Positions 1,811 through 27,735 of a DNA stretch of 32,000 bases are shown piece by piece. The DNA is taken from positions 30,001-62,000 of the forward strand of contig NZ_CP080507.1 of assembly GCF_019464535.1 (NCBI RefSeq), written 5' to 3'. The notes beneath the pieces were generated by a model, which was not told the DNA's origin, did no database searches, and worked only from the letters and a program-made list of their open reading frames with translations. Numbering within the stretch: position 1 is the first letter of the stretch; the number at the start of each line of letters is the position of its first letter. Made by a program: the position numbers and the translations under genes. This stretch comes from Horticoccus luteus (GTDB lineage: Bacteria; Verrucomicrobiota; Verrucomicrobiia; Opitutales; Opitutaceae).

Positions 1811-2357
1811 GGCGCAGGGCTGGCCGGGCTCCGGCCCGTCCGCCCCGTGGGGGCAAATTGGGGGACGCAGCTCCGCGTGGAACAAACGGTGGTTCGTTGA
1901 GCGCGGGCACTCCGCAGCCAGTCGTGCGCAGGGCCGAGGGCTGCCGGTGAGTCCGCGCCGCGAGGCTCACTCACGCTGCTGCGACCTCAGCTTTCCGGTT
2001 TCACGTTTCGGCCTGTAGGTTCGTGCCGCTCCGTGCGGCCGGCACCTAACGCGCCGACGTCTGTGTGAACAGGATGGTACACACGTTTCGCATGTAGGTG
2101 GTGGCCCGCGACGACGACCGCGTTGAGTCCGATCTTATCCACCTGTACACCGGAGAGCGCCGCGCTCGGCGCGCGCCTGGAGGAATGAGGCGCGCGGTGG
2201 CCTGCCCGTTGCTCCTGCGCACGGGCGGGCGGGTAACACCTAATAGAAGCTTCCCCCGATTTGTGCGACTCTGCGGCTGGGTTGCGCAGTGGGGCCACCC
2301 CTTTGGGCCCGCTCCACTCCGCTGGCCGCACTCCTTCCTCAACTAGAAAATACTTTC

Positions 2358-5588: not shown

Positions 5589-6350
5589 ATGCCGATCGAC
5601 CCCAACACTTGGCAGCAATTACTCCACACGGTGTTCGAAATGAATGCCTCGGGGTGCCGCACGGCGTTTAGCGAGACGGTGGTCACGGGGCTGAGCGAGA
5701 TGATCGCAGCGGACGTGATTGTCTTCCACGTCCTCGATACGAAGTCGCAGCGCATCCTCACGCACATGAGGCCGCCCTCGCCTTATACCGACGAGGAGAT
5801 CGCTTATTACGCGGCGCATTCCGGCGAACATCCCATCGGAGCCCACTACCTTCGCCACCCCGAGGCCGGGGCGCTGCGCGTTTCCGATGTCATCGGCGAG
5901 GAGGAATGGCTGGCGAGTGAGTATTACCGCACGTGTCTCCAGCGTCTGGGACTCGTTCACAGCCTGGTGCTGCCGGTGAAGATCGACCGTTCCGTCGTCG
6001 TGGCGTTGTCCTTCAGTCGTCGCGCGCCGGATTTCACGAAGGAGGATTGTGTGCTGCTCGATGCGTTCGGCCCGCATTTGCGCCTCGCGTGGCGGCAGCA
6101 CGAAAACCCGTGGGCCGACCGCCGCGAGTTGAAATGTCGCCGGCGCCTGCAGGATCTCGGCCTCTCGCCGCGCGAGAGCGAGGTGCTCTTCTGGATGACC
6201 GAGGGCAAGGTGAACCGGGAGATCGCGACCCTGCTCGGACTCAGCCTCGGCACGGTGCAGGATTACGTCTCGTATATCCTCGCCAAACTCCAGTTGGAAA
6301 ACCGGCACGCCGCGACGGTCTTTGCCATCAACCGCCTCCGGCCGCAGTAA
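5589..6350 (+). CDS. LuxR-family transcriptional regulator (N-terminal sensory, GAF-like domain + C-terminal HTH); no partner kinase adjacent
   Basis: C-terminal 'LSPRESEVLFWMTEGKVNREIATLLGLSLGTVQDYVSYILAKLQLENRHAA' is a GerE/LuxR HTH. The N-terminal 180 aa have no REC motifs. Confidence 0.8.
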   Translation: MPIDPNTWQQLLHTVFEMNASGCRTAFSETVVTGLSEMIAADVIVFHVLDTKSQRILTHMRPPSPYTDEEIAYYAAHSGEHPIGAHYLRHPEAGALRVSDVIGEEEWLASEYYRTCLQRLGLVHSLVLPVKIDRSVVVALSFSRRAPDFTKEDCVLLDAFGPHLRLAWRQHENPWADRRELKCRRRLQDLGLSPRESEVLFWMTEGKVNREIATLLGLSLGTVQDYVSYILAKLQLENRHAATVFAINRLRPQ

Positions 6351-6426: not shown

Positions 6427-9207
6427 CTACTTTGTGGGGAAGCGTAACACCACGTCGGCTTCGCCGGTGAAGTTTTCCAGGCGGACGAGTTCGCGGGCGG
6501 CGTCGTAGGTGCCGCCTTCGACGCTCGTTGCGCGGGCGCCGGTGGGATGCGGGAGGCGGAACTCGACGTCGCGCGGATGGCGGGGGCCGGCGCACGTGAC
6601 GTGCGCGCGGATCACGCCGTGGGCGAGGTCGGAGTCGACGCGGAAGGAGAGCGGGCCGAAATAGCTGCTCACGTTTTCCACGGAGATTGTTTTTCCGTCG
6701 GCGAGATAGTCGCGCGGCACGGTGGCGAGGAGGTGCAGGGTGTCGCCGTCTTCGAAGTAAAGCATCCAGCGCGTCTGCATCAGGAACCAGGCTTCTTCGT
6801 GCGTCTTGTGGTCGCTCGCGGGGAAGAAGTGTTCGGTGAACGTATAGGTGCTGCGATCGGCGAGCGCGGCGACGGCGTTGTAGTAAGCTTTGAGGAACGG
6901 CTTCACTTCACCGCGGTGGAGATGAACCCACGGGTGGCGGCTATAGTAAGGTTGGGAAAACGCGACGTTGTCGGCCAGCATCAGCTCGCTGTTGACGTGC
7001 AGCAGCGCGGTCGTGACGGGCTCGTCGGGGGCGAGCACTTCCTGGAACGCGAGGTAGAGCGGTCCGAGGAGGGAGTCGCGCGCGGTCATCGTGCCGTGCG
7101 TGAACACCGGTGCGCCGTCCACGTGCAGCATCATCACGCCGCGGTCTTCCGTCCATGGCGGGGCGGTGCGGGACCAGGTGCCGTCGCCGAGCGGGACGAC
7201 GGGTGAACGCGCCATCGATTCGGCGAGGGCGGTGCGGAGGTCGGCGCGCAGGCTGTCGGCTTCCGCGCGCCAGCGGGCGCTGGCGGCGGGGTCGATGGCG
7301 ACGAGCATTTCGGCGGCGCGGGCGAGGCCGAGGTAGGCGTAGCCGCTGAGCATGAAGGAGTGAAACGGATCGTCGGGATCGGCGACTTTGCCTTCGAGGA
7401 GGCCGTAGCCGTGGCCGCGAAGGGCTTCCGTGCGGTTGCGGGCGCGCCACGCGGCGAGAAACTCGCAGGACTTGATCACCTTCGGCGCGACTGCGCGGGC
7501 CCAGGTGTCGTCGTGCGTATAGCGATAGTGTTCGCCGATGGTCCAGAGGGCGGCGCCGGTTTCGAGCATATAGCCGTTGAAGTTCTGGATGAAGCCGTCG
7601 GCGTGTTGCTTATCGAGGAAGTAGTTGATCGCGCGGCGGGCGGTCTCGTGCCAGCCCATCGAATCCATGAACTGGATGATGGGTGCGCTTTCGGAGCCGA
7701 TGGGGCTGTAGATACCGATCGTCGGGGCGAGGGTGCCATGGGGCTCGAGGCCGTAGTTGATCAAATCTAGGTGAAGCAGGCCGGCGCGCATCATTTCATC
7801 CATCCGCGGTTCGGGCAGGTGGAGGCGCGCGGCGGAGGCGAGCTTGCCGCGCCAGAAAGCCCGAGCTTCGGCGAGGCGCATGTCGAAGGACTGCGTGGCC
7901 AGGGCCGCCGCGCGCGCGGCGGAGATCGGCGAGTGGGGGACGAAGAAGTCGAAAGTGACGCTGGCGCCGGGTTGGAGGAGGACGGATTTCTCCGGCAGGT
8001 CGAGCGGACCGTCGGCGGTGCGCGACACCGCGAAGACGCGGCCGGTGGGAAACACGCCGAAGCCCGTGGCGCGGTCGAAAGTCCACGCGGGCGGCTTCAT
8101 CACGGGCGGGAGCGTGGGCGAGACGCTTTTAAAGAGCGCGTAGGCGGGCGTGGCGCCGCGGTTGGTCGCGACGACGCGCGCGTAGAGGACGGTTTCCTCG
8201 GGCTGGTCGAGCTCGGTTGGACGGAGTTTCTCCAACTCGGCGCTTTGCTCGGGGGTGAACATGTGGCCGTGGCTGTAAGCGTCGGCGACGAGGTAGTGGG
8301 TGCCGCGGAGGTGAGCAGCGTCGAAGGGGGATTTTTCGTAGCTGGCGAAAAGTGTGACGTCGTAGACGAGCGCGTCATCGACGGTCTCGGCGTGGAGAAT
8401 GGGGAGATCGCCGTCGTCGAGGCGGCGGGTGATGTGATCGGCGGGGCCCCAGCCGCGGCCGACGTTGAAGAGGTAGATGGGTTGTTGATCGCTGGTCTCG
8501 GGAAGCTTGAGGTCGAAACCGCTGCGTGTGGGCTGAATCGAGGTGGCGCGGGGGTCGATGCGGAAGATGCGCATGTCGCGGCTGAGGCCGAGCCATGTCT
8601 GGACTTTTTGCTCGCGGGTGTGAGTAGCGGCGTCGGGAAAGTTTTCCTCGGGTTCGCGTTCGTAGCGTTGGAGTTTGGTCAACGTGCCGCGGGCGTGCGT
8701 GGCGGCGGCGATTTGGGCGTAGGCGCGCGGGTCGCTGGCGAGGGTGATGGCAACGCCTTCCGCGGGCAGGAAAACGGGAAACTCGGTGGTGACATCGCCC
8801 GCACGGACGGTGAACGCCCAAGCGGGCGTGCGGAGCGTGACGAGGACGTCGGCGGCGGAGGCGGCGGCGGGAGGTTTTGCGGTGACGAGGAATTCGACGC
8901 GGTGCGGCGACGATGAGGCCGGGGCGCGGGGTGAGGGCACCCCGCCCACAGTGGAGGGGGCGGGCGTTCCGTCGGCAATGCGGGGTGAGAGCACCCCGCC
9001 AACAGTGAGAGGGAGGACGGCGACGGTGCCGCGGTCGGCGGTGAGTTCGAGCGCGGAGAGATCGGCGGGGGAGACGGCGGCGAGCCGGAGGGGCGTGGCG
9101 CCGGCGGAGGGCTCGGTGGAGGTTAGGGGCGCGGTCGGCTCGGATTGCGCGGAAAGCGAGAAGGCGGCGGAGACTATGAGGGCCATGACAAGAGGGAGAC
9201 GGATCAT
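6427..9207 (-). CDS. Secreted large protein with a possible (alpha/alpha)6-barrel glycosidase-like C-terminal half; function unknown
   Basis: Uninterrupted 926-aa ORF. ATG at 9207 with signal peptide 'MIRLPLVMALIVSAAFSLSAQ'. The helical-repeat region 'FMDSMGWHETARRAINYFLDKQHADGFIQNFNGYMLETGAALWTIGEHYRYTHDDTW' resembles six-hairpin glycosidase folds by eye only. Confidence 0.6.
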   Translation of the reverse strand: MIRLPLVMALIVSAAFSLSAQSEPTAPLTSTEPSAGATPLRLAAVSPADLSALELTADRGTVAVLPLTVGGVLSPRIADGTPAPSTVGGVPSPRAPASSSPHRVEFLVTAKPPAAASAADVLVTLRTPAWAFTVRAGDVTTEFPVFLPAEGVAITLASDPRAYAQIAAATHARGTLTKLQRYEREPEENFPDAATHTREQKVQTWLGLSRDMRIFRIDPRATSIQPTRSGFDLKLPETSDQQPIYLFNVGRGWGPADHITRRLDDGDLPILHAETVDDALVYDVTLFASYEKSPFDAAHLRGTHYLVADAYSHGHMFTPEQSAELEKLRPTELDQPEETVLYARVVATNRGATPAYALFKSVSPTLPPVMKPPAWTFDRATGFGVFPTGRVFAVSRTADGPLDLPEKSVLLQPGASVTFDFFVPHSPISAARAAALATQSFDMRLAEARAFWRGKLASAARLHLPEPRMDEMMRAGLLHLDLINYGLEPHGTLAPTIGIYSPIGSESAPIIQFMDSMGWHETARRAINYFLDKQHADGFIQNFNGYMLETGAALWTIGEHYRYTHDDTWARAVAPKVIKSCEFLAAWRARNRTEALRGHGYGLLEGKVADPDDPFHSFMLSGYAYLGLARAAEMLVAIDPAASARWRAEADSLRADLRTALAESMARSPVVPLGDGTWSRTAPPWTEDRGVMMLHVDGAPVFTHGTMTARDSLLGPLYLAFQEVLAPDEPVTTALLHVNSELMLADNVAFSQPYYSRHPWVHLHRGEVKPFLKAYYNAVAALADRSTYTFTEHFFPASDHKTHEEAWFLMQTRWMLYFEDGDTLHLLATVPRDYLADGKTISVENVSSYFGPLSFRVDSDLAHGVIRAHVTCAGPRHPRDVEFRLPHPTGARATSVEGGTYDAARELVRLENFTGEADVVLRFPTK
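8926..8949 (-). repeat. REP-like hairpin element, copy 1 (minus-strand reading: GTGG-GCGGGGTG-CCCT-CACCCCGC)
   Basis: 8-bp perfect stem gcggggtg/caccccgc with a 4-nt loop, flanked by a GTGG head on the minus strand. Lies inside the 926-aa ORF and encodes 'TVGGVPSP'. Confidence 0.7.
8980..9003 (-). repeat. REP-like hairpin element, copy 2 (minus-strand reading: GTTG-GCGGGGTG-CTCT-CACCCCGC)
   Basis: Same stem as copy 1, loop agag, head GTTG. Exactly 54 bp from copy 1, in the same orientation and reading frame, encoding 'TVGGVLSP'. Confidence 0.7.
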
Positions 9208-10363: not shown

Positions 10364-10963
10364 ATGAGCAACGACGGGCCATTGCCGGGGGAGCCGGCGT
10401 TTTGGGATCAGCGTTACGCGGCGGAGCGGACGCCGTGGGACGCGGGCGGCGCCGCGCCGCGGCTGGTGCGTTTCGCCGCGGAAAACGCGGGGCCGGGGCG
10501 CGCGTTGATTCCGGGCTGCGGCCGCGGCTACGAAGTGGCGGTGTTGGCGCGGGCGGGTTGGGACGTGAGCGCGATCGACTTCTCGGCGGTCGCGGTGGAA
10601 CGCGCGCGGCGTCTGCTCGGGCCGGGGCTCGGGGAGCGCGTGCGCGTGGGAGATTTTTTCCAAGGAGGACTGTCGGCGGGGACCTTCGATCTCGTTTACG
10701 AGCGAACGTTTTTCTGCGCGCTTTCGCCCCGGCAACGAGAGGCGTATGTGGCGCGCATGGCGGAATTGCTTCGCGCGGATGGGCGGTTGGTGGGATTTTT
10801 CTACACGGGCGACGAACGCGACGGCCCGCCCTATCAACTCAGCGCGGCGGACGAAGAAGCGCTGTTCCGGCCGCGATTCGAACTCGTCCGCGAAGAGGTG
10901 GTGCCAGAATCGATGCCGCTTTTCGAAGGGCGCGAGCGGTGGCGGGAATACCGGCGACGGTAG
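10364..10963 (+). CDS. SAM-dependent methyltransferase, thiopurine/halide methyltransferase (TPMT)-like
   Basis: 'FWDQRYAAERTPWD' N-terminal motif and SAM motif I 'ALIPGCGRGYEVAVLARAGWDVSAIDFS'. Lies 34 nt downstream of the oxidoreductase gene. Confidence 0.7.
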   Translation: MSNDGPLPGEPAFWDQRYAAERTPWDAGGAAPRLVRFAAENAGPGRALIPGCGRGYEVAVLARAGWDVSAIDFSAVAVERARRLLGPGLGERVRVGDFFQGGLSAGTFDLVYERTFFCALSPRQREAYVARMAELLRADGRLVGFFYTGDERDGPPYQLSAADEEALFRPRFELVREEVVPESMPLFEGRERWREYRRR

Positions 10964-11103: not shown

Positions 11104-11862
11104 ATGTTTCGCCGTTCCATGTCATCCCCATCCCGCTGCGGAGTTCTGCTTTTTATCGCTTCGCTCGCATTGACGGGCGTCGGCCGCGCTCAGGTGCTGA
11201 CGGCGGACACGCTGGGAGCGAGTCAGGCCAGCTTTTATCCGGAAAACTTCACGTTTACGCAGACGTTCTCACAAGTCAGCCAGATCGAATCGCTGACGTT
11301 CCGCTTACTGGCCGGTTCGAACGACTTCTCGGCTTCGACGTTAAATTACTATTTCAGCGAGTGGAATCCGATCACGGGACTGGCCACGGGGACCGCTCTG
11401 GCGCAGGGGACATTGGACATTGATGCTGGCGCGGCCTGGCAGCACGCCGCCATCTACAGCGGTGTGTATAACTATTTCGATGCGACCTTGGATTTGAGCT
11501 CCGTGGCGAGCGGCCTCACTCCGTCCGCCACCTATGCCATCAGTTTTTATGGGTCGATGACAGGAGTTCCCGGGGGAGTGTATGCCCCCGGGCTCGCCCT
11601 TTCTTCCAGTCTTTATGCAGATGGCGGAACGTTCATCTTGGATCCCAGCGTCACTGACGGAAGCCAACTGACCACCAACGCCAGCGGAAACTACGCAGGG
11701 AACTACGACCTGCTCTTTTCCGCCGGGCCTTCGTCGCTATCGCCCGTGCCCGAGGCGGGGACGACGGCGGTGGTTTTGGCCGGTTTGTTCGTGAGCGGTT
11801 TGGTAGGTTGGCAGATTCGTCAGCGCCGGCGAGCGGTCGGCGTGTCCGCCGACGTGGTTTGA
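11104..11862 (+). CDS. PEP-CTERM-type sorting-domain protein (VPEAG variant); mature domain of unknown function
   Basis: Signal peptide 'MFRRSMSSPSRCGVLLFIASLALTGVGRA'. The middle is rich in Ser/Thr/Gly/Tyr. The C-terminus 'SPVPEAG-TTAVVLAGLFVSGLVGW-QIRQRRR' shows the motif, TM helix and Arg cluster typical of exosortase substrates. Confidence 0.8.
   Translation: MFRRSMSSPSRCGVLLFIASLALTGVGRAQVLTADTLGASQASFYPENFTFTQTFSQVSQIESLTFRLLAGSNDFSASTLNYYFSEWNPITGLATGTALAQGTLDIDAGAAWQHAAIYSGVYNYFDATLDLSSVASGLTPSATYAISFYGSMTGVPGGVYAPGLALSSSLYADGGTFILDPSVTDGSQLTTNASGNYAGNYDLLFSAGPSSLSPVPEAGTTAVVLAGLFVSGLVGWQIRQRRRAVGVSADVV
11743..11832 (+). other. C-terminal exosortase sorting signal (PVPEAG motif, hydrophobic helix, RQRRR)
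   Basis: Codons 214-243 of the 252-aa ORF. The tripartite architecture is read directly from the translation. Confidence 0.75.
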
Positions 11863-13685
11863 TGCAACTGATGGCGGGCCGCCGGCAATCCCGGCGAGTC
11901 AAAGCCCTGCGTATCGCGGGCAGCGCGTTACTCCTTCTGCTCGTGGCCGGCGGTTGGTGGAGCTACCGGCCGGCGGTCACGCGTTACCATCATTGGAAAC
12001 AGCGGCGCGCGCTTACGCAGGCGCGGGATTTTCTGGCGCAGAAAAATTTCACGAGCGCGAAACTGGCGCTGGATGTCGCGCTGGAGGCGGTGCCGGGCGA
12101 TCCGGACGCCTTGCGGGTGGCCGCCGATTTGCTGGATTCCGTGGGCCTGCCGCAGGTGATGCCGTTGCGCCGCCGGCTGGTGCAAATGGCGCCCGGTTCG
12201 GTCGAGGATCGGGCGGCGTTGGTCGCCAGCGCGTTGCGGTTTCACGATCTGAACGCCGCGCGCGATGCGCTGAGCGAAATGACACCGGAGCAGGCGGAGC
12301 AGCCGGCGGCGTTGAAGGCGGCGCTGAGCTTTGCGTTGGCGACGAATAATAAACCCATCGCCGACCTGCTGTATGATCGGTTGCAGAAGGCGGAACCGAC
12401 AAATGGAAACCTCAAGGTGATGCACGCGTTGCTGCGGCTGCAGAGTCCGCAACCTGCCACCGTGATCGCGGCGCGACAGGAGTTGGAGGTGTTGGCCAAG
12501 GACCCGCGCAACAGTCTTTTCATTCACCGCGAAATGACGGTCGAGGCCATGGCCCGCCATGACGCCCAGGAGGCGGCGCAGCAGGCGAAACGGGCGGTTG
12601 CAGATCCGCGCTCGACGTTGGAGGACCGTCTGCACCTCGCGAATATCGAACTGAATTTCGAGCGACGCCCGTTCGGCGACGTCTGGGCCGAAGTGGTCCC
12701 GCACGCGCAAGGCACGGCCGCGGATGCGGCGGCGGCGGTGCGGTGGTTGATCGTGGTCGGCGAGGCGGCGCGGGTGCCGGCGTGGATCGAGGGTTTGCCG
12801 GCGGCGCTGCGGGCTGATCCTGCGGTGGTGGCGGCGCAGGCCAACGCGCTGGCGGCGGCAGAAAATTGGGACGGCCTGCAGCAGATGATCGAGTCCGGGG
12901 CGTGGGGCAAAGTGGACCACGACGCGGTCGGCCTGGCATTCACGGCGCGGGTGGCCGGGGCGCGTCAAAATGCGGAGCTGCAACGCAAGGTGTGGGATGA
13001 AGCGCTGGCGGCGACGGGCAATTCGCTGACTGAGCTGAACGTGCTTTACCGGCTGGCGACTCTTTGGCGGTGGGATGCGCCGGTCGAGCGCACCTTGTGG
13101 GCGATCGTGAAGGGGCATCCGAACGAGGGGTGGGCCTCGCAGGCGCTTTTTAGTCATTACCGGGAGCAAAAGGATACCAGCGGCATGCGCCAGTTGATGG
13201 ATTCGTTGCGCGGATCCGACCCGACGATGCCGCGCTATAAATACGACTGGGCGTTGTTGTCGCTGCTTTGCTCGCCCAGTGCGAATTGGACGTCGCCGAA
13301 GGAAACCATGCGCACGCTCTACGCGGGGGAGCCGAACAACGCCTCGTATGCGACCGGTTATGCCTTCGCGCTGGCGCAATCAGACAAGGCAGACGAGGCG
13401 CTCGCGGTGACGGGAAAATTGTCGGCGGACGCCCTCGCGCTGCCCGCGCGGGCACCGTATCTCGCGTATATCTACGGCGTGGGCCGGCAAAAGGAGGCGT
13501 TTGGTAAATACGCCAGCCGGCAAGCGGACCTGACGAATTTGTTGCCGGAAGAAACCGCGTTGTTTTCGCAGGGGCGCGCCGCGGTGAATCGGCCGGCGCC
13601 GGCGAAGACGTCAGCGAGCGACAAGCCGACCAAAACGGAGAAGACGCCGGTGGCGACTTCACCCGAGCCGTCGGCGAAGCCCTGA
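11862..13685 (+). CDS. Signal-anchored all-helical / TPR-like repeat protein with a Pro/Thr/Lys-rich tail
   Basis: The ATG at 11862 overlaps the upstream TGA by 1 nt (TGATG). The N-terminus 'RRVKALRIAGSALLLLLVAGGWWSY' is a single TM anchor. Long Ala/Leu-rich helical repeats follow ('ARDFLAQKNFTSAKLALDVALEAVPGDPDAL...'). Alternative TTG start at 11808. Confidence 0.7.
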   Translation: MQLMAGRRQSRRVKALRIAGSALLLLLVAGGWWSYRPAVTRYHHWKQRRALTQARDFLAQKNFTSAKLALDVALEAVPGDPDALRVAADLLDSVGLPQVMPLRRRLVQMAPGSVEDRAALVASALRFHDLNAARDALSEMTPEQAEQPAALKAALSFALATNNKPIADLLYDRLQKAEPTNGNLKVMHALLRLQSPQPATVIAARQELEVLAKDPRNSLFIHREMTVEAMARHDAQEAAQQAKRAVADPRSTLEDRLHLANIELNFERRPFGDVWAEVVPHAQGTAADAAAAVRWLIVVGEAARVPAWIEGLPAALRADPAVVAAQANALAAAENWDGLQQMIESGAWGKVDHDAVGLAFTARVAGARQNAELQRKVWDEALAATGNSLTELNVLYRLATLWRWDAPVERTLWAIVKGHPNEGWASQALFSHYREQKDTSGMRQLMDSLRGSDPTMPRYKYDWALLSLLCSPSANWTSPKETMRTLYAGEPNNASYATGYAFALAQSDKADEALAVTGKLSADALALPARAPYLAYIYGVGRQKEAFGKYASRQADLTNLLPEETALFSQGRAAVNRPAPAKTSASDKPTKTEKTPVATSPEPSAKP

Positions 13686-13746
13686 GTGCGGCCATGGAGC
13701 GGCGGCGGAGAATGCGGCGGAGTCAGGGGCAATCCCGGGCGAGCTC

Positions 13747-15321
13747 ATGAGTGGCGTGCGTCAGGCGGATCCGGCTTTTGCGGGCAGGGTGTTGTGGCTG
13801 GTCGCACTCGCAGCGGCCGCGTTGCTGCTGGGGCCGTTGTCGCGCGCATGGGCTTTGGCGCCCGATCTGGGGCACGGGTGGGCGGCGCCGATGTTGATCG
13901 CGTATTTGTGGTGGGAGCGCTGGCCGCAGCGGCCGGGCTTGAGGGCGGCGCGGGCGGTGGGTGCGGGGAGCTGGGTGGCGTTGGGAGTGTGCCTGATGGT
14001 GGCGTTGGCGCTGCGCTTGCTGCTCACGCCTTATCCGCTCTGGCCGGTGGCGGTGATTGTTTATACGGCGCTGTTGATCGGGCTGGCACTGGTGGCGGCG
14101 GCGCAGGTGGCGGGCGCGGCGGGCGTGCGCTGGCTGGGTGGGCCCTTGCTGGTGTTGATCGCGGTGTTGCCGTGGCCGGGGGCCGTGGAACGCGCGCTGA
14201 TTCTGCCGGTTCGCGAGGCGATCGCATCGCTCGTGGCGGAGATCAGCAACCTCGCGGGCCATCCGGCGTTGGCGGCGGGCACAAGTGTGCGGCTGGCTGG
14301 CGGGTGGGTGGGCATCGACGAGGCGTGTGGTGGCATTCGTTCGCTGCAAGCGGCGGTGATGACGGCGTTGTTTTTTGGCGAGTGGCTGCGTCTGCCGTGG
14401 CGGCGGCGGGTGGTATTGATCGCGGCGGGGGGGATGGCGGCAGTCGTGGGTAATTTCGGGCGCGTGCTCTTCCTGTCGTGGCGGGCCGAGAGTGGGGATT
14501 TGGCGCGCTGGCACGACGGCGCGGGCTGGGTCGCGTTGGGCTTTTCGCTCGTGGTGACGGGGTTGGTGGGCTGGCGGTGTCGCTCGCGTGCCGGGCGCAA
14601 GGCGGAGGCTGGGAAGCCGGGTGCGGCGACGATGAAGGCACAGCCTCCGGCGCCGGTCGTGAGCAAGAGTGTGCCGACGGGGATACTCATCTGGATGGTG
14701 ACGGCGGTGGTGGTGTTGGGCGGGATCGAGGCGGGCACGCGTGCCTGGTATGCGCGGGGCAAGGCGCGGTGGCGCACGACGGTGCCGCAATGGACGGTGC
14801 GTTTTCCGGAGGCGAATCCGACGTTGCGGCACGTGCCTTTAGGCGAGAGCGCGCGGGAGATGCTGCGGCCGGACGTGTTTGCATCGGCGTCGTGGCGCGA
14901 ACGCGATCAAGCGGAGCGCAGCGCAAATTATATCGTGTGGCGCACGGGTCAGGTGGCGCGCTCGGCGCCATTTTTGCATAACCCGACGATTTGCCTGCCT
15001 TACTCCGGTTGTGAGTTGGAAGAGGAATTGGGCGTGATCAACGTGTCGTGGGCGCACGGTGAAATCCCGTTTCATACGTATATTTTCCGGCGCATGGACG
15101 ATACTCTGCTGGTGGCGTTCGCGTTGTGGGATCCGGGGCGGGGCGGGCCGCTGCAAAGCCGCGGCGGGGGCTGGATGGGGTGGTGGCGCGACCAATGGCG
15201 CGATGTGCGGGAGGCCCGCCAGGATCAACCGGCGCAGCTTTTTTCCTACGCGATCGCCGGCCGCGGCGGTCGGGACAGGCTGGCCAAGGATTTGAGCGCA
15301 CTCATTCGGCCGGTGGAGTGA
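13747..15321 (+). CDS. Exosortase (EpsH/Xrt family) fused to a C-terminal EpsI-like domain
   Basis: Polytopic N-terminal half with 'DLGHGWAAPMLIAYLWW'. Catalytic-type motif 'IDEACGGIRS' (Cys194 at 14326-14328, Arg198) and 'WHDGAGWV'. A linker and one TM ('ILIWMVTAVVVLGG') follow. A soluble domain then carries 'FLHNPTICLPYSGCE', resembling the EpsI 'H.P..CLP..G' signature (His411, Cys416). Confidence 0.85.
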   Translation: MSGVRQADPAFAGRVLWLVALAAAALLLGPLSRAWALAPDLGHGWAAPMLIAYLWWERWPQRPGLRAARAVGAGSWVALGVCLMVALALRLLLTPYPLWPVAVIVYTALLIGLALVAAAQVAGAAGVRWLGGPLLVLIAVLPWPGAVERALILPVREAIASLVAEISNLAGHPALAAGTSVRLAGGWVGIDEACGGIRSLQAAVMTALFFGEWLRLPWRRRVVLIAAGGMAAVVGNFGRVLFLSWRAESGDLARWHDGAGWVALGFSLVVTGLVGWRCRSRAGRKAEAGKPGAATMKAQPPAPVVSKSVPTGILIWMVTAVVVLGGIEAGTRAWYARGKARWRTTVPQWTVRFPEANPTLRHVPLGESAREMLRPDVFASASWRERDQAERSANYIVWRTGQVARSAPFLHNPTICLPYSGCELEEELGVINVSWAHGEIPFHTYIFRRMDDTLLVAFALWDPGRGGPLQSRGGGWMGWWRDQWRDVREARQDQPAQLFSYAIAGRGGRDRLAKDLSALIRPVE

Positions 15322-15361: not shown

Positions 15362-17014
15362 TCAGAGCGGCTCGGTGGGTGGAACGAAATTCCAACGGGT
15401 AGCGGAGAAGAGGCCGCGGTCGCTGAGTTTCAGATCGGGGATCACGAGGAGCGCCATGAAGGAGAGCGTCATGAAGGGAGCGTCGAGTTTTGAGCCGAGG
15501 CGTTTCGCGAGGTGATCGAGCGCGGTGTAGCGGCGCGCCACGGTGCGGCCGTCGCGGTCGGACATGAGCCCGGCGATCGGCAGCGGCAGCACGGCACGGC
15601 GCCCGCGGCCGACGACGCTGAGGCCGCCGCGGTGGGCGATGACGAGGTTGACGGCGGCGGCGAGCGAGGCGTCGTCCGCGCCGACCGCCACGATGTTGTG
15701 CGAGTCGTGGGCGACCGAGGAGGCGAGGGCGCCGGCGCGGAGGCCGAAGCCGCGGATGAAGCCGATCGCGAGGGGAGCGCGCGGCGTGTAGCGGTTGACG
15801 ACGGCGATTTTGAGGAGGTCGCGCGGGAGGTCGGTGACGGCGTGGCCGGCGACGACGCGGGCGGGTTCGCGGAGATGACGGGAGATGAGCTGGCCGTTAA
15901 TGGCTTCGATGATGTTCAACGTCGTGCCGGCGGCGGCGGGCACGGCGAAATCGGCGGCGGTGCGCGCGCGGGCGCGAAACTGATTCGGCGTCGCAGAGGG
16001 TTGGCGCGGGAGGCGCGAGCGGCCGGCGGCGGCGACGAGTTCGCCGCGCAGGTAAGTGCGGCGGACGCGGAACGAGCGCCAGTTGTCCACGACGATGAAG
16101 TCGGCGGGATCGCCGGCGCGCAACAGGCCGACGTCGAGGTCGTAGTGCTCGACGGGGTTGACGCTGGCGCAGCGGAGCACGTCGAAACGATCGGCGCCGG
16201 TGGCGAGCGCGCGGCGGACGTGTTCGTCGAGGTGGCGGCGGATGAGGAGGTCGGGGTGGAGATCGTCGCAGCAGAACATCACGCGGTCGGGGTGCGTGCG
16301 CAGGAGCGGCGCAAGGGCGGCGAAGTTGCGCGCGGCGGAGCCTTCGCGGATGAGGATCTTCATGCCGGCGGCGAGTTTGTCGTGGGCTTCTTCGAGGGTG
16401 AAACACTCGTGGTCGGTGGTCGGCCCGGCGGCGGCATAGGCGGCGGCTTGCGCGCCCCGCAGGCCGGGCGCGTGGCCGTCGATTTGTTTCCCGCGGGCGT
16501 GAGCGGCGGCGATCATCGCGCGGAGCGAAGGATCGCCGGCGAGGACGCCGGGGAAGTTCATCACCTCGGCGAGGTAGCGGATGTCGCGCCGCGCGAGGAG
16601 GCGGGAAACCGCAGCGGCATCGAGCGTGGCGCCGGCGGTTTCGAAGGTGGTGGCGGGCACGCACGAAGGCGCGCCGAAGTTGAACTTGAAGGGCGTGCGT
16701 TGCCCATCGCGGATCATGTAAACGACACCGCGCGGGCCGAGGACGTTGGCGATTTCGTGCGGGTCGGAGACGGTGGCGACGGTGCCGTGGACGACGGCGA
16801 GGCGCGCGAACTCGGCGGGTGGCAGGAGGGAGCTTTCGATGTGGATGTGCGCATCGACGAAGCCGGGGAGGATGAGGTGGCGTTCGCGAACGGCCGGGTC
16901 GGCAACGAGGCGCGTGATGCGGCCGGCGCGCCATTCGACGGTGCCGGGATAAGTGCGACGGGCGTGGACGTCGACGATCTGGCCGGAGAGGCGGCGCAGG
17001 GGCGATGCGGGCAT
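15362..17014 (-). CDS. ade: Adenine deaminase
   Basis: Amidohydrolase metal motif 'GFVDAHIHIESSLL', with 'GVVYMIRDGQ', 'GFIRGFGLRAGALASSVAHDSHNIVAVG' and 'PFMTLSFMALLVIPDLKLSDRGLF', all typical of Ade. An ATG at 17014 is preferred; the in-frame ATG at 17101 adds 29 atypical residues. Confidence 0.85.
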   Translation of the reverse strand: MPASPLRRLSGQIVDVHARRTYPGTVEWRAGRITRLVADPAVRERHLILPGFVDAHIHIESSLLPPAEFARLAVVHGTVATVSDPHEIANVLGPRGVVYMIRDGQRTPFKFNFGAPSCVPATTFETAGATLDAAAVSRLLARRDIRYLAEVMNFPGVLAGDPSLRAMIAAAHARGKQIDGHAPGLRGAQAAAYAAAGPTTDHECFTLEEAHDKLAAGMKILIREGSAARNFAALAPLLRTHPDRVMFCCDDLHPDLLIRRHLDEHVRRALATGADRFDVLRCASVNPVEHYDLDVGLLRAGDPADFIVVDNWRSFRVRRTYLRGELVAAAGRSRLPRQPSATPNQFRARARTAADFAVPAAAGTTLNIIEAINGQLISRHLREPARVVAGHAVTDLPRDLLKIAVVNRYTPRAPLAIGFIRGFGLRAGALASSVAHDSHNIVAVGADDASLAAAVNLVIAHRGGLSVVGRGRRAVLPLPIAGLMSDRDGRTVARRYTALDHLAKRLGSKLDAPFMTLSFMALLVIPDLKLSDRGLFSATRWNFVPPTEPL

Positions 17015-17347
17015 GCGCGGGTTATGAGCGAGACGCGGCGGTTGGCAACGCTGGGTGGCGACGAGCGCGACGCGCCAAACGGGATCGAACGTGACGAGCA
17101 TTTGTCACGGAGGGGACGGAACTCGGACACAGAGGCGGAGGGAGAGCGCGAGGATTTGGGCGGGGTGGACGGCGGATCGATGGGAAAGGACCGAGGTGCG
17201 AACGAAGCGAACTTTGTTTGGCTGGCACGGTTGCGAGACGATGATTTTTGCTGGCCGGAGATTCGTTCGCGGAAAGAACGGCGTTGCCGCGCGCCGCGGA
17301 GTGACTTCGGGCTGGATGCGGGCGAGAGGCGGGCTAGGTTGCGCGGC

Positions 17348-21250: not shown

Positions 21251-22693
21251 TTATAAACCGAGCGCGGCGGCGGCGTCGGTGACGAGTGGATCGGGAGAAA
21301 GAGGGACGCGGGGGACCGGGACGCCGAGGCGATTTTCGCGGGCGGTGAGGGTGAGCCAGGCGAGGGACGCGAGGGGTGTCGCGGCGGCGACGAGTGGCGC
21401 GCGGTTGGCGGCGGGCGCGTCGGTGGCGGGAATGTTATCGCGGGCGAGCAATCCCTTGTCGGCGAGAAACGCGGCGAGGGAAGCGTCGTGCAGTTCGAGC
21501 CAGGGTTGGGCGGCGGGGGGCGGCGTGTAAGCGAGCGCGCGGGTGTCGGCGGACCATTCCATGAAGGCGCGGATGGTTTCGTGGAGTTGGGCGAGTTCGG
21601 CGTCGGCGGTGGCGGGCGTCCAGCGGGCGACGAATTGTTTACGTTCGCGGAATTTCTTCACCTCCCACACGCGCAGGCTGAGTTCGTAATCGCCCGCGAC
21701 GGCGCGCACGGCGCCGGTGACGACGTAGTCGAGGGGTTCGCTGTGCGTGTCGATGAGCTGGCGGAGGTTGTCGGAGCTCCATTCGGCGGGGAATTCGGCG
21801 AGGCGGCGGCCGCGCGAGGGGTCGTTGAGCGTGCCGACGATGGCGATGGGCGCGTAGTGGGGCGAAAAATAAAATGTTTCGGCGAGCCACGTGGGCACGG
21901 CGCGGGCGAGGCGGGCGACGTCGGCGGGGGCGTCGTTTTCGCCGGCGGCAGGCAGCGCGGCGAGTTGGGCGAAGGCGATGCGGCGAAGGCGGCCTTCCTT
22001 GGGCGGGAGGATGCGCGGCGCGAGGGCTTCGAGGCCGTAGAACCAGATGGGTTTGCTGAGCGTGACGAGGTCGATTTTGGCCGGTTCGGCGGGTGAGGGA
22101 GTTTCGGTTTCGTCGGCGGTCTCGGCTGCGGATGCATCGTCAGCGGGCGAGGAGGGCGGCGCGGGTGGTGCGCCGGCGAGGGGCGATTGGCGGGAGAGGA
22201 GCAGCTCCGCGATGGCGTTGGAAAAACCGTGGAGGCGATCCTCGAGTTCAGGACGGTTGAGCGCGAAAAGGAGATCGAGGACGTGCTGGGCGGCGTCGGG
22301 TTCGCGGAGGGCGAGATAGGCTTGCACGAGATTGACGCCCGTGGCGGGCCCGTGACGGTGCGCATCGTAACGCGGCGCCACGAGGTCGATGATTTCACGG
22401 AGGTAGCCGTTGACGCCGAGGTCGCCGGAAATCGTGACGAGAACGTCGGCGCGATCGCCCGCTTCGGCGAGCACCTGTTCGTAAAGCGCGAGGGCGGCGG
22501 GAAGATCGCGGGCTTCGAGTTTTTCGCGCGCGGCGAGGAGCAGGGGCTTGACGCCACCGGATGTGGCGGGCGACGCGGGGGCGGCGGGTTGAGCGGATGG
22601 CGCAGTGTCCGGGGCGAGGGGCGAGGGCGGCGACGGAGGCAGAGTGGCGTCGGTGCGAGCGGGTTGGGCGCGAAAGCGGTCGAAAAATCCCAT
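21251..22693 (-). CDS. Hypothetical protein (Pro/Ala-rich linkers, TPR-like helical N-terminal region, unknown C-terminal domain)
   Basis: Long ORF with sensible composition. An ATG at 22693 ('MGFFDRFRAQ') is preferred over the track start at 22798, which adds an Arg-rich leader. No motif I can name. Confidence 0.55.
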   Translation of the reverse strand: MGFFDRFRAQPARTDATLPPSPPSPLAPDTAPSAQPAAPASPATSGGVKPLLLAAREKLEARDLPAALALYEQVLAEAGDRADVLVTISGDLGVNGYLREIIDLVAPRYDAHRHGPATGVNLVQAYLALREPDAAQHVLDLLFALNRPELEDRLHGFSNAIAELLLSRQSPLAGAPPAPPSSPADDASAAETADETETPSPAEPAKIDLVTLSKPIWFYGLEALAPRILPPKEGRLRRIAFAQLAALPAAGENDAPADVARLARAVPTWLAETFYFSPHYAPIAIVGTLNDPSRGRRLAEFPAEWSSDNLRQLIDTHSEPLDYVVTGAVRAVAGDYELSLRVWEVKKFRERKQFVARWTPATADAELAQLHETIRAFMEWSADTRALAYTPPPAAQPWLELHDASLAAFLADKGLLARDNIPATDAPAANRAPLVAAATPLASLAWLTLTARENRLGVPVPRVPLSPDPLVTDAAAALGL

Positions 22694-22870
22694 GGCGTTA
22701 CGACAAGGGAGCGCGCGGCGGCTGGCGAATCGAAATCCGCGGGGGTGGCGCGGGCGGTCGGCGGTGCGGAGGAGCCGCGCGCGGAGCGCACGGCGCACCG
22801 TTGAGGTGGCGGCGGATAAGGTTTGTCGCGAAGAGCGGGCGCGGCGCGGATCGCGGGCGCGAGGAAATGC

Positions 22871-27710: not shown

Positions 27711-27729
27711 GATTACGATTAAGAGCACG
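27699..27729. repeat. Right arm of the inverted repeat flanking the four-helix-bundle gene
   Basis: gagcacgagtaagattacgattaagagcacg. It overlaps the last codons and stop of the gene ('..IEHE*') and ends 6 nt before the ATG of the next gene. Confidence 0.65.
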
Positions 27730-27735
27730 AATACC

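What the first reader, a model, noticed from the sequence alone, without database searches (positions are those of the whole stretch)
11104..15321. Self-contained three-gene exosortase cassette (one substrate, a TPR-like anchor protein, an exosortase-EpsI fusion) with no polysaccharide genes nearby
Seen in the sequence: three co-directional genes are packed tightly, with a 1-nt stop/start overlap and then a 61-bp gap. The first is a 252-aa secreted protein ending in a motif/TM/Arg-cluster sorting signal. The second is a 607-aa signal-anchored helical-repeat protein. The third is a 524-aa exosortase carrying its own EpsI-like domain. Established knowledge: classical PEP-CTERM/XrtA systems sit among exopolysaccharide genes, PrsK/PrsR regulators and the PrsT TPR lipoprotein, and serve many substrates. 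Small 'dedicated' exosortase cassettes with one adjacent substrate are known for several variant classes. Here the flanks are a methyltransferase and adenine deaminase, with no glycosyltransferase, Wzx/Wzy or NtrC-type regulator in 32 kb. Inference: this may be a dedicated sortase-substrate-chaperone module whose cargo domain and TPR partner I cannot assign to any named family. It is the best candidate in this window for an undescribed system.
Basis: partly seen in the sequence, partly recalled or inferred. Interest (0 to 1): 0.7.

Follow-up and report, generated by a model that had tools for sequence, protein, structure and literature searches.

The report
Conserved Opitutaceae exosortase–TPR–cargo gene module
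Three adjacent genes in the soil bacterium Horticoccus luteus encode a membrane protein-sorting enzyme (exosortase), a helical-repeat partner and the secreted protein it most likely processes; the trio is conserved across the family Opitutaceae but has no specific name in the libraries searched.

Summary
Three co-directional genes sit at the stated coordinates: a 252-aa secreted protein with a PEP-CTERM-like tail, a 607-aa membrane-anchored TPR protein and a 524-aa exosortase fused to an EpsI-like domain. The 1-nt overlap and 61-bp gap are as described. No polysaccharide genes lie in the 32 kb.

The window is Horticoccus luteus (Opitutaceae, Verrucomicrobiota). The exosortase carries the family's catalytic motifs but reaches no named Xrt subfamily cut-off. 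The best is XrtD, at 87 bits against a cut-off of 400.

The trio is a real module:
- The TPR gene sits directly upstream of the exosortase in 36 of 36 related loci with enough flank.
- A cargo homologue is adjacent in 34 of 35, while the surrounding genes differ.
- Two genomes carry the whole trio twice.

The cargo tail is a variant signal. It often reads PE[A/S] instead of PEP and carries about 10 extra residues. In about 860 kb of related DNA this tail occurs only next to exosortase genes. Scattered canonical PEP-CTERM proteins in the same genomes score far lower.

It is best read as a new, unnamed subfamily of exosortase system with a cognate substrate and a new TPR partner. I could not test whether the enzyme also serves the canonical PEP-CTERM proteins. 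Interest is moderate.

The parts
11104..11862 (+). Cargo gene: a 252-aa secreted protein (NCBI start at 11119, 247 aa; QYM79064.1, 'hypothetical protein K0B96_00165'). The mature part is about 184 aa, rich in Ser/Thr and free of Cys, and is predicted to be a beta-sandwich.
   Evidence: The ORF is and the identity to P0121. The family alignment of 36 sequences is A2. The body matches no Pfam or NCBIfam family. The AlphaFold2 model is all-beta with mean pLDDT 71, and Foldseek against the PDB found nothing at E<=1e-3, only weak CBM/jelly-roll-like matches.
11104..11190 (+). N-terminal signal peptide of the cargo. The hydrophobic core is residues 14-32. The family-wide [A/S/G]-Q motif makes the invariant Gln30 the likely first mature residue.
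   Evidence: Hydropathy is and the invariant Q30 from alignment A2. The cleavage site is inferred, not predicted with a dedicated tool.
11740..11859 (+). Variant PEP-CTERM sorting signal: SPVPEAG, then the hydrophobic helix TTAVVLAGLFVSGLVGW, QIRQRRR and a 9-residue extension AVGVSADVV.
   Evidence: The second Pro of 'PEP' is replaced in 26 of 36 family members, and all scorable members carry a 7-15-residue extension after the basic cluster. TIGR02595 matches only 11 of 36 members, and weakly. Cross-validated tail HMMs separate this class (33-75 bits) from scattered canonical tails (6-22 bits).
11862..13685 (+). Gene for a 607-aa TPR / alpha-solenoid protein with one N-terminal TM anchor (residues ~13-31; QYM79065.1, 'hypothetical protein K0B96_00170'). 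The repeat domain is predicted to be periplasmic.
   Evidence: The ORF is, the exact NCBI match and the single TM. TPR_19 matches 29 of 31 orthologues (best 1.7e-13) and TPR_CcmH_CycH 21 of 31. No PDB relative was found beyond designed repeat proteins. It is not PrsT: TIGR02917 matches 4 of 31, weakly. The gene sits directly upstream of the exosortase in 36 of 36 loci.
13747..14670 (+). Exosortase domain (residues 1-308) of the 524-aa fusion protein QYM79066.1. It carries the family motifs C194-x-G196, N236-x-x-R239 and H256-x-x-x-G260.
   Evidence: PF09721 matches at 3e-32 over residues 25-277 and the TIGR04178 signature scores 49.4 bits against a cut-off of 23. All six motif residues are invariant in 21 orthologues. 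The motifs are as defined in PMC1569441. The best named subfamily, XrtD, scores 86.9 bits against a cut-off of 400.
14671..15321 (+). EpsI-like C-terminal domain (residues ~309-524). It has one further TM helix (309-327) and then a ~190-residue periplasmic alpha/beta domain with the invariant motif H411-N-P-x-x-C416-x-P-x-x-G421.
   Evidence: PF11984 (EpsI/DUF3485) matches 8 of 21 orthologues and is recorded for further orthologues. In more distant Verrucomicrobiae the same domain is a separate gene next to a ~310-aa exosortase (L044). The AlphaFold2 model has pLDDT 87.9 and pTM 0.83. Foldseek gives weak matches to the PsbP/DcrB/MTC28/Eag-chaperone fold, E 2e-3 to 5e-2.

Best explanation
This is a three-gene protein-sorting module that is conserved across the family Opitutaceae.

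Proposed pathway:
1. The 252-aa protein is exported through Sec.
2. Its signal peptide is removed, probably just before the invariant Gln30.
3. It stays tethered in the inner membrane by its C-terminal helix, with the Arg cluster and a ~10-residue tail on the cytoplasmic side.
4. The neighbouring exosortase is a polytopic membrane enzyme with the Cys/Arg/His motifs. It recognises the variant P-V-P-E-[A/S/P] signal at the outer face of the membrane and cuts off the anchor.
5. It then releases the beta-sandwich protein or transfers it towards the cell surface.
6. The enzyme's own periplasmic EpsI-like domain and the membrane-anchored periplasmic TPR protein act with it, as substrate-handling or hand-over partners.

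What is shown: the gene architecture, the catalytic motifs, the domain identities, the conserved linkage of the three genes, the co-duplication of the trio and the distinctness of the tail class.

What is inferred: cleavage of this protein by this enzyme, the periplasmic topology, the roles of the TPR and EpsI parts, and the final location of the cargo.

My split on scope: about 55% that the enzyme is essentially dedicated to this cargo family, and about 45% that it also processes the canonical PEP-CTERM proteins of the genome.
For: Identity. The window protein is 100% identical to the H. luteus exosortase/archaeosortase family protein. PF09721 and the TIGR04178 signature pass their cut-offs. 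The CxG, NxxR and HxxxG motifs are invariant in 21 orthologues (motif definition in PMC1569441).

The EpsI-like domain. PF11984 matches 8 of 21 orthologues, and the domain is a separate adjacent gene in L044.

Linkage, starting from the enzyme. The TPR gene is directly upstream in 36 of 36 type-1 loci. A cargo homologue is adjacent in 34 of 35: 32 by tblastn, plus L025 and L041 by clustering. The flanking genes differ between loci and include ABC-F, MsrA, GNAT, EamA and DJ-1 genes. Neither the methyltransferase nor the deaminase of the window recurs in any locus.

Linkage, starting from the cargo. For three cargo-family proteins from metagenomes (P0126, P0128, P0129), every contig with upstream context has the order ~600-aa protein, ~517-aa PF09721 protein, cargo.

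Gene order. It is rearranged yet the trio is kept. The closest relative (75% identity) has cargo-TPR-Xrt as in the window, but next to cytochrome-oxidase assembly genes.

Co-duplication. L012 and L015 carry TPR1-Xrt1-cargo1 followed by cargo2-TPR2-Xrt2, and cargo2 is a true paralogue (hhalign probability 98.5%, E 2.8e-15).

Signal class. The tail departs from canonical PEP-CTERM. In two-fold cross-validated HMM searches of 6084 ORF tails (~860 kb), cassette-type tails occur only next to exosortase genes. Canonical PEP-CTERM proteins of the same genomes score 6-22 bits against 33-75 bits for cassette tails.

Cargo family. It is small and uniform: 125 representatives at E<=1e-10 among 1.84 billion proteins. 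Full-length listed matches are 210-300 aa and align end to end; shorter entries look like fragments.

Precedent. Regular adjacency of sorting enzyme and target is the published hallmark of one-to-one systems (PMC3237569; Haft 2023 preprint).
Against: - There is no experimental evidence for cleavage, localisation or interaction.
- The tail is still recognisably PEP-CTERM-like, and 11 of 36 members weakly match TIGR02595. Its similarity among orthologues could simply reflect common descent.
- The same genomes encode canonical PEP-CTERM proteins, about 5 in ~700 kb of flanks. These need an exosortase, and a second one was seen near the module in only 3 genomes (L012, L015, L041).
- Other Verrucomicrobia run 21-65 PEP-CTERM proteins on one or two exosortases (PMC3048395; PMC1569441).
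- In Verrucomicrobiales loci L045 and L046 a canonical PEP-CTERM gene also lies right next to an Xrt-EpsI fusion. Adjacency alone therefore does not prove exclusivity.
- The whole H. luteus genome could not be scanned.
Confidence: 0.75

Rival explanations
1. This is the housekeeping exosortase. On this reading the Xrt-EpsI enzyme is the general PEP-CTERM sorting enzyme of Opitutaceae and serves all the scattered PEP-CTERM proteins. The adjacent 252-aa protein is only its most conserved or most abundant client, and the TPR protein is a general accessory factor.
For: - The enzyme is present in every Opitutaceae genome recovered, about 41 species-level genomes.
- Canonical PEP-CTERM proteins exist in these genomes.
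- Related Xrt-EpsI fusions in Akkermansiaceae and Luteolibacter lack the TPR and cargo neighbours. Akkermansia is reported to serve 21-23 PEP-CTERM proteins with a single EpsH (PMC3048395; PMC4960237).
- TPR homologues lie near unfused exosortases in more distant Verrucomicrobiae (L044, L054), which suggests a general accessory role.
Against: - The cassette tail forms a separate class from canonical tails within the same genomes.
- When the enzyme duplicated, the cargo and the TPR gene duplicated with it.
- In published surveys, target genes lie next to the sorting enzyme in one-to-one systems but not in many-to-one systems (PMC3237569).
- At least three genomes have a further exosortase close by.
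Confidence: 0.4
2. The 252-aa protein is a component of the sorting apparatus rather than cargo. Examples would be a processed periplasmic or outer-membrane adaptor, or the acceptor to which other proteins are joined. The machine would then have three parts: enzyme, TPR scaffold and adaptor.
For: - It is inherited and duplicated in strict step with the enzyme and the TPR protein.
- The family has uniform size and a single domain with a few invariant residues: Q30, W87 and Y144.
Against: - It evolves much faster (25-38% identity) than the enzyme (45-60%) and the TPR protein (40-50%). That is more typical of an exposed surface product than of a machine part.
- It has the full architecture of a sorting substrate: signal peptide, Ser/Thr-rich body and tripartite tail.
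- No structural match to any known adaptor was found.
Confidence: 0.1
3. The three genes are neighbours by chance or only through shared ancestry, and have no functional link.
For: The 61-bp gap and the lack of a detectable promoter or terminator say nothing either way.
Against: - Linkage survives across about 40 species-level genomes with unrelated flanks and two different gene orders, and it is reproduced in a tandem duplication.
- The TPR and Xrt genes overlap by 4 nt or are 2 nt apart in relatives.
Confidence: 0.02

Closest known systems
Dedicated variant exosortase systems, for example XrtD with VPLPA-CTERM (TIGR04152)
   Same: XrtD is the best-scoring named model. Its match runs through the EpsI-like region (residues 33-458 of the query against positions 3-417 of 486), so the long fused architecture is shared. 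The idea of a variant signal paired with its own exosortase is also the same.
   Different: The score is 86.9 bits against a cut-off of 400, so this is not XrtD. The signal is P-V-P-E-[A/S/P]-S-T, not VPLPA. The conserved TPR partner and the cargo family are not part of any XrtD context I can document. My knowledge of typical XrtD context is from memory and was not tested.
Classical PEP-CTERM/XrtA (EpsH) system with EpsI and the TPR lipoprotein PrsT (PMC1569441)
   Same: The enzyme family and catalytic motifs are the same, and an EpsI-homologous region fused to EpsH is already described there. A TPR protein is associated with the system. The substrates share the signal peptide, Ser/Thr-rich body and tripartite tail.
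   Different: XrtA scores 56.5 bits against a cut-off of 208. There is no EPS locus and no PrsK/PrsR. The TPR protein is not PrsT: TIGR02917 matches weakly in 4 of 31 orthologues, and the protein has a TM anchor where PrsT is described with a lipoprotein signal. PEP-CTERM genes of XrtA systems are mostly scattered single-gene units, whereas here the substrate gene is adjacent.
One-to-one sorting-enzyme/target pairs in general: rhombosortase with a single GlyGly-CTERM protein, and the JDVT-CTERM system (PMC3237569; Haft 2023 preprint)
   Same: The genetic signature is the same. The sorting enzyme and its single target are encoded by consecutive genes and are inherited together.
   Different: The enzyme families are different. 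Here a third conserved gene (TPR) belongs to the unit, and canonical PEP-CTERM signals coexist in the same genomes.
Verrucomicrobial Xrt-EpsI fusions outside Opitutaceae (Akkermansiaceae, Luteolibacter, Verrucomicrobiales: L043, L045-L048)
   Same: They share the fused architecture and 25-30% identity over most of the length. They also reach no named subfamily cut-off.
   Different: They have no TPR neighbour and no cargo-family neighbour. The adjacent PEP-CTERM genes in L045 and L046 carry canonical VPEP tails.

Membership tests
Exosortase/archaeosortase superfamily (PF09721; TIGR04178 signature) | The HMM match is above the curated cut-off. | tested here: met
   PF09721 scores 112.5 bits against 25.7, and TIGR04178 scores 49.4 against 23.
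Exosortase/archaeosortase superfamily (PF09721; TIGR04178 signature) | The invariant motifs Cys-x-Gly, Asn-x-x-Arg and His-x-x-x-Gly are present (PMC1569441). | tested here: met
   C194-G-G196, N236-F-G-R239 and H256-D-G-A-G260 are present, and all six residues are invariant in 21 orthologues.
Exosortase/archaeosortase superfamily (PF09721; TIGR04178 signature) | The protein is polytopic, with about eight TM helices. | tested here: inconclusive
   A simple hydropathy scan finds 6 strong segments in the N-terminal domain plus one before the EpsI-like domain. No dedicated topology predictor was available.
Named exosortase subfamilies scored here (XrtA, B, C, D, J, N, O, T, V, W; cyanoexosortases CrtA, CrtB, CrtC) | The score reaches the curated cut-off of the subfamily model. 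| tested here: not met
   The best matches are XrtD at 86.9 against 400, XrtA at 56.5 against 208, XrtV at 44.5 against 313 and XrtW at 41.4 against 425. An orthologue (L004), the type-2 paralogues and other verrucomicrobial exosortases give the same result.
EpsI family (PF11984 / TIGR02914) | The HMM matches the C-terminal domain. | tested here: inconclusive
   The window protein itself does not hit PF11984 or TIGR02914, even at E<=10. However, 8 of 21 full-length orthologues hit PF11984, best E 1.6e-8, and the domain is alignable throughout. It is a divergent member by transitive homology.
EpsI family (PF11984 / TIGR02914) | The domain is encoded next to, or fused with, an EpsH-type exosortase (PMC1569441). 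| tested here: met
   It is fused here. In L044 it is a separate adjacent gene, cluster c7, with the same HNPTxCLP motif.
PEP-CTERM sorting domain (TIGR02595 / PF07589) | The tail is tripartite: motif, TM helix and basic cluster at the C-terminus. | tested here: met
   The tail is SPVPEAG, a hydrophobic stretch (about 19 residues) and RQRRR.
PEP-CTERM sorting domain (TIGR02595 / PF07589) | The Pro-Glu-Pro motif is near-invariant and the HMM matches. | tested here: not met
   The window protein reads P-E-A and does not hit TIGR02595 or PF07589 at E<=1. In the family, 26 of 36 members lack the second Pro. Only 11 of 36 hit TIGR02595 weakly and 5 of 36 hit PF07589. Canonical neighbours in the same genomes pass the 16-bit cut-off.
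PEP-CTERM sorting domain (TIGR02595 / PF07589) | The domain ends at or near the protein C-terminus, right after the basic cluster. | tested here: not met
   All 35 scorable family members carry 7-15 further residues, median 10.
PrsT (TIGR02917, XrtA/PEP-CTERM system TPR lipoprotein) | The HMM match is at equivalog level and the protein has a lipoprotein signal. | tested here: not met
   The window protein gives no hit at E<=1. Four of 31 orthologues hit weakly, best E 3.2e-8, alongside other generic TPR families. The N-terminus is a TM anchor without a lipobox Cys.
Dedicated (one enzyme, one target) sorting system in the sense of Haft | The enzyme and target genes are regularly consecutive or nearby. 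| tested here: met
   The cargo is adjacent in 34 of 35 loci starting from the enzyme. Starting from the cargo (P0126, P0128, P0129), every contig with upstream context shows the same adjacency. The trio is also co-duplicated.
Dedicated (one enzyme, one target) sorting system in the sense of Haft | The genome holds only one target with the cognate signal. | not testable with these tools
   The whole H. luteus genome could not be scanned. Partial evidence: no second cassette-type tail in the 32-kb window or in ~860 kb of related loci outside exosortase neighbourhoods, and no H. luteus paralogue of the cargo in the protein searches.

The most novel reading that the evidence does not exclude
The most novel reading is that Opitutaceae run a strictly one-to-one exosortase system beside their canonical PEP-CTERM pathway. 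In it the periplasmic TPR protein and the EpsI-like domain form a hand-over device. The EpsI-like domain has a PsbP/Eag-chaperone-like fold and an invariant His...Cys motif. The device would capture the variant tail or carry an acyl intermediate, and deliver a lineage-specific beta-sandwich subunit to a surface structure. This would give EpsI and an exosortase-linked TPR protein their first defined roles. It would also provide a minimal system of one enzyme, one partner and one substrate for reconstituting exosortase chemistry.
Probability: 0.2. Interest if true: 0.6.

Novelty: new variant of a known kind. Interest (0 to 1): 0.42.

Why it matters
Exosortases are widespread, yet almost nothing is known experimentally about their acceptor, their partners or the role of EpsI. 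Most systems pair one enzyme with dozens of unrelated substrates, which makes them hard to dissect.

A compact module with one enzyme, one conserved partner and one cognate substrate offers a tractable model. It is present in a cultured organism (H. luteus) and in about 40 related genomes. It could be used to test cleavage-site specificity, the fate of the substrate, and what the EpsI and TPR components do.

For annotation, the results define three unnamed families: an Xrt subfamily, its TPR partner and its cargo with a variant tail. All three are currently labelled 'hypothetical' or generic.

Tried and rejected
Things that led nowhere:
- Protein word-index searches with the cargo, as a single sequence and as a 36-sequence profile, returned only 5 and 11 proteins because the sequence is of low complexity. 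This limited the depth of the alignment behind the cargo model, whose pLDDT is 71.
- Foldseek of the cargo model against the PDB gave no hit at E<=1e-3. The weak CBM and viral jelly-roll matches (TM 0.25-0.36) are not enough to assign a function.
- Foldseek of the EpsI-like domain gave only weak matches to the PsbP/DcrB/MTC28/Eag fold. I keep this as a lead, not a finding.
- Sequence searches of the PDB found no solved relative of the exosortase. For the TPR protein they found only designed repeat proteins.
- The promoter and terminator scan of the cassette was no better than shuffled sequence.
- Literature searches found no paper describing this module or any Opitutaceae exosortase. Haft et al. 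2012 was not held.

Things considered and rejected:
- Membership of XrtA, XrtD or any other named subfamily.
- PrsT identity for the TPR protein.
- The FxDxF and MHFG PEP-CTERM families for the cargo, because those hits cover the tail only and fall below the cut-offs.
- Chance adjacency.

Whether H. luteus has another exosortase could not be resolved.


Full report
**1. Observation**

They are at 11104-11862 (252 aa), 11862-13685 (607 aa from the ATG) and 13747-15321 (524 aa), all on the + strand. The junction reads GTT-TGA-TG, so the first stop and the second start share one base. Sixty-one bases separate the second and third genes, and no earlier in-frame start exists for the third.

GC at third codon positions (0.70, 0.80 and 0.81) supports all three as coding. 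The first gene has a lower overall GC than its neighbours, 59.7% against 66-68%.

All three proteins are exact or near-exact matches to deposited proteins of Horticoccus luteus (Opitutaceae, Verrucomicrobiota):
- QYM79064.1, 'hypothetical protein K0B96_00165' (start five codons later than in my ORF);
- QYM79065.1, 'hypothetical protein K0B96_00170';
- QYM79066.1, 'exosortase/archaeosortase family protein'.

**2. Surroundings**

The immediate flanks are a TPMT-type methyltransferase (10364-10963) and an adenine deaminase (15362-17101, minus strand).

The rest of the window holds:
- a HisKA_3/LuxR two-component pair;
- a 950-aa Ig/He_PIG protein;
- a GAF-LuxR regulator;
- a 926-aa secreted protein with no Pfam match;
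- a Gfo/Idh/MocA oxidoreductase and a PhyH dioxygenase;
- a fatty-acid hydroxylase and a peroxiredoxin;
- an amidase_3 and an SLT transglycosylase;
- an MscS channel, a MiaB-like enzyme and guanylate kinase;
- NadB and NadC.

None of the genes I scanned matched a glycosyltransferase, Wzx/Wzy or NtrC-type family. A screen of all ORFs found no other PEP-CTERM-like tail in the window.

**3. The enzyme**

Residues 25-277 match PF09721 (3e-32), and the generic exosortase/archaeosortase signature TIGR04178 passes its cut-off. Haft et al. (PMC1569441) define the EpsH family by three motifs: Cys-x-Gly, Asn-x-x-Arg and His-x-x-x-Gly. All three are present here as C194-G-G196, N236-F-G-R239 and H256-D-G-A-G260. 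All six residues are invariant in an alignment of 21 orthologues.

No named subfamily model comes near its cut-off. XrtD scores 86.9 against 400, XrtA 56.5 against 208, XrtV 44.5 against 313 and XrtW 41.4 against 425.

This is not peculiar to the window. An orthologue, two paralogous types and exosortases of other Verrucomicrobia also fail every named model. The lack of a name therefore applies to verrucomicrobial exosortases in general.

**4. The EpsI-like domain**

After a basic linker and one more TM helix (residues 309-327) comes a ~190-residue domain. It carries the invariant motif H411-N-P-x-x-C416-x-P-x-x-G421.

The window protein itself does not hit PF11984 or TIGR02914. However, 8 of 21 orthologues hit PF11984 (EpsI/DUF3485), best E 1.6e-8. 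In more distant Verrucomicrobiae (L044) a ~310-aa exosortase is followed by a separate ~224-aa gene for the same domain, with the same motif.

Fusion of an EpsI-homologous region to EpsH was already noted in 2006, so the architecture is known.

An AlphaFold2 model of the domain is confident (pLDDT 87.9, pTM 0.83). Its best PDB matches are weak (E 2e-3 to 5e-2, TM 0.3-0.5). They belong to the PsbP/DcrB/MTC28 fold and to the Eag chaperones SciW and EagT6, which were solved bound to transmembrane segments of effectors. That is a lead for a role in binding a hydrophobic segment. It is not a result.

**5. The TPR protein**

It has a single N-terminal TM segment preceded by basic residues. The ~570-residue remainder is therefore predicted to be periplasmic.

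The window protein alone gives only sub-threshold TPR hits. Across 31 orthologues, 29 match TPR_19 (best 1.7e-13) and 21 match the CcmH/CycH TPR domain.

It is not PrsT. TIGR02917 appears weakly in 4 of 31 orthologues, among other generic TPR families such as PgaA, BcsC, PilW and SctY. The PDB holds no specific relative.

**6. The cargo**

The protein has four parts:
- a signal peptide;
- a ~184-residue mature region with 26% Ser+Thr, 8.5% charged residues and no Cys in any of 36 family members;
- a tripartite tail;
- a short extension after the tail.

The body matches no Pfam or NCBIfam family. The weak hits to the FxDxF and MHFG PEP-CTERM families cover the tail only.

An AlphaFold2 model built from an 11-sequence alignment is an all-beta sandwich of moderate confidence (pLDDT 71; core blocks 78-89). 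Foldseek finds no significant PDB match, only weak carbohydrate-binding-module and jelly-roll similarities.

A profile search of 1.84 billion representative proteins finds a small, uniform family. There are 444 matches at E<=1e-3, 125 at 1e-10 and 66 at 1e-30. Full-length listed matches are 210-300 aa and align end to end, and the shorter entries look like fragments.

**7. Is the trio a unit?**

A scan of one genome per species for relatives of the enzyme returned 54 loci. Forty-one of them carry the orthologous ('type 1') enzyme.

- The TPR gene lies directly upstream in 36 of 36 loci with enough flank.
- A cargo homologue (25-38% identical over its full length) lies next to the enzyme in 34 of 35. 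tblastn finds 32, and clustering adds L025 and L041.
- The one exception, L042, is a contig that begins inside the enzyme gene.

In most relatives the order is TPR-Xrt-cargo. The window and its closest relative (75% identity, a JGI metagenome contig) have cargo-TPR-Xrt, and in that relative the module sits beside cytochrome-oxidase assembly genes.

The genes around the trio differ from clade to clade and are housekeeping genes: ABC-F, MsrA, GNAT, EamA, DJ-1 and a GntR/aminotransferase. Neither flank of the window recurs in any locus.

The same order appears when starting from the cargo side. For three metagenomic cargo-family proteins, every contig with upstream context shows a ~600-aa protein, then a ~517-aa PF09721 protein, then the cargo. 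The first two genes overlap by 4 nt or lie 2 nt apart.

Two genomes (L012, L015) carry two modules in tandem: TPR1-Xrt1-cargo1 and cargo2-TPR2-Xrt2. Cargo2 is a true paralogue of the family (hhalign probability 98.5%, E 2.8e-15). Enzyme, partner and cargo were thus duplicated together.

**8. Dedicated or housekeeping?**

Evidence for a cognate, possibly exclusive pairing:
- The tail differs from the canonical domain. The residue after P-E is Ala, Ser or Thr in 26 of 36 members, where canonical tails have the near-invariant Pro.
- Every scorable member has 7-15 residues (median 10) after the basic cluster.
- TIGR02595 matches only 11 of 36 members, and weakly. Scattered PEP-CTERM proteins in the flanks of the same genomes pass its cut-off.
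- In a two-fold cross-validated test, tail HMMs gave held-out cassette tails 33-75 bits. Proteins next to the type-2 enzyme scored 32-39 bits, and scattered canonical tails scored 6-22 bits.
- No ORF away from an exosortase gene carried a cassette-type tail among 6084 ORFs, about 860 kb.
- Published surveys of sorting systems report enzyme-target adjacency as the mark of one-to-one systems, and not of many-to-one systems.

Evidence against exclusivity:
- Canonical PEP-CTERM proteins do occur in these genomes, about five in ~700 kb of flank, and they need an exosortase.
- A second exosortase was seen near the module in only three genomes.
- Akkermansia and Verrucomicrobium run 21-65 PEP-CTERM proteins on one or two enzymes.
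- In L045 and L046 a canonical PEP-CTERM gene also abuts an Xrt-EpsI fusion.
- Tail similarity among orthologous cargo proteins is expected from common descent.

I could not scan the rest of the H. luteus genome. I therefore hold the enzyme-substrate-partner module at about 0.75. Within it, I put the strictly dedicated reading at roughly 55%.

**9. Mechanism**

The following is inference from family knowledge plus the anatomy above.
1. Sec exports the cargo and the signal peptide is cleaved.
2. [quoted passage not shown]
3. The exosortase triad recognises and cleaves at the P-V-P-E motif at the outer leaflet.
4. The cargo is released or transferred to an unknown acceptor.
5. The EpsI-like domain and the TPR protein act on the periplasmic side, in substrate capture or hand-over.

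None of these steps has been shown for this system.

**10. Comparison and novelty**

The enzyme is a member of the exosortase superfamily (tested and met). It belongs to none of the named subfamilies (tested and not met). Its tail is a variant of PEP-CTERM that fails two of the three defining features of the canonical domain. Its TPR partner is analogous to PrsT but is not PrsT.

The separate elements are all described: Xrt-EpsI fusion, a TPR accessory, and an adjacent dedicated target. What I found no description of, in the libraries and papers searched, is their combination as a conserved, co-duplicating three-gene unit in Opitutaceae, together with the cargo family itself.

I class it as a new variant of a known kind, of moderate interest. 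It is useful as a minimal model for exosortase biochemistry and for annotation, but it would not surprise a specialist.

Noticed in passing
L012:2894-11855 and L015:4576-13285: Two Opitutaceae genomes carry the module twice in tandem, as TPR1-Xrt1-cargo1-cargo2-TPR2-Xrt2. The second copy is divergent: Xrt about 39% and TPR about 29-32% identical to the window proteins. Its cargo tail is different (SPVPEPAVNG...WRRYGRK).
   Followed up: partly
L041:13408-15033 (minus strand): A third, very divergent Xrt-EpsI fusion (541 aa) lies two genes downstream of the module, convergent with it. Its XrtD-model score (131.9 bits) is the highest among the eight exosortases scored. It might be the enzyme for the canonical PEP-CTERM proteins.
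   Followed up: partly
L044:5429-11412; also L050, L053, L054: In more distant Verrucomicrobiae the exosortase (~310 aa) and the EpsI-like protein (~224 aa) are separate genes, adjacent in L044. A GDP-mannose 4,6-dehydratase and a small DNA-binding-like protein lie just upstream. A 25%-identical homologue of the TPR protein lies a few genes further up. Here, therefore, the system does sit next to a sugar-nucleotide gene.
   Followed up: partly
window 14671-15321 (model mf360bf6caa85): The EpsI-like domain is predicted with high confidence. It weakly resembles the PsbP/DcrB/MTC28 fold and the Eag chaperones (SciW, EagT6), which bind transmembrane helices. The invariant H411/C416 motif falls in the least confident part of the model.
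   Followed up: partly
window 11104-11862: The cargo gene has a clearly lower GC content (59.7%; GC3 0.70) than the TPR and exosortase genes (65.7% and 68.4%; GC3 0.80-0.81).
   Followed up: no
window 6427-9207 (minus strand): A 926-aa protein with an N-terminal signal-like sequence has no Pfam match at E<=1e-3.
   Followed up: no
window 2289-5141: A 950-aa protein with He_PIG and Ig domains sits between a HisKA_3/LuxR two-component pair (114-1810) and a GAF-LuxR regulator (5589-6350). It has no PEP-CTERM tail.
   Followed up: no
window 21251-22798 (minus strand) and 27634-28275: Two further likely genes (515 aa and 213 aa, with high GC3) have no Pfam match.
   Followed up: no
window 6001-32000: GC skew (G over C on the + strand) is positive in every 1-kb bin from about 6 kb to the end of the window (0.03-0.31). 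The locus tags (K0B96_00165 and following) place the window near the start of the deposited chromosome.
   Followed up: no
L045:3-509 and L046:3-5978: In Verrucomicrobiales and Akkermansiaceae loci a canonical PEP-CTERM protein is encoded immediately upstream of the Xrt-EpsI fusion. In L046 it is longer than 1990 aa and contains autotransporter-type beta-strand repeats. Adjacency to a substrate is therefore not unique to Opitutaceae.
   Followed up: partly
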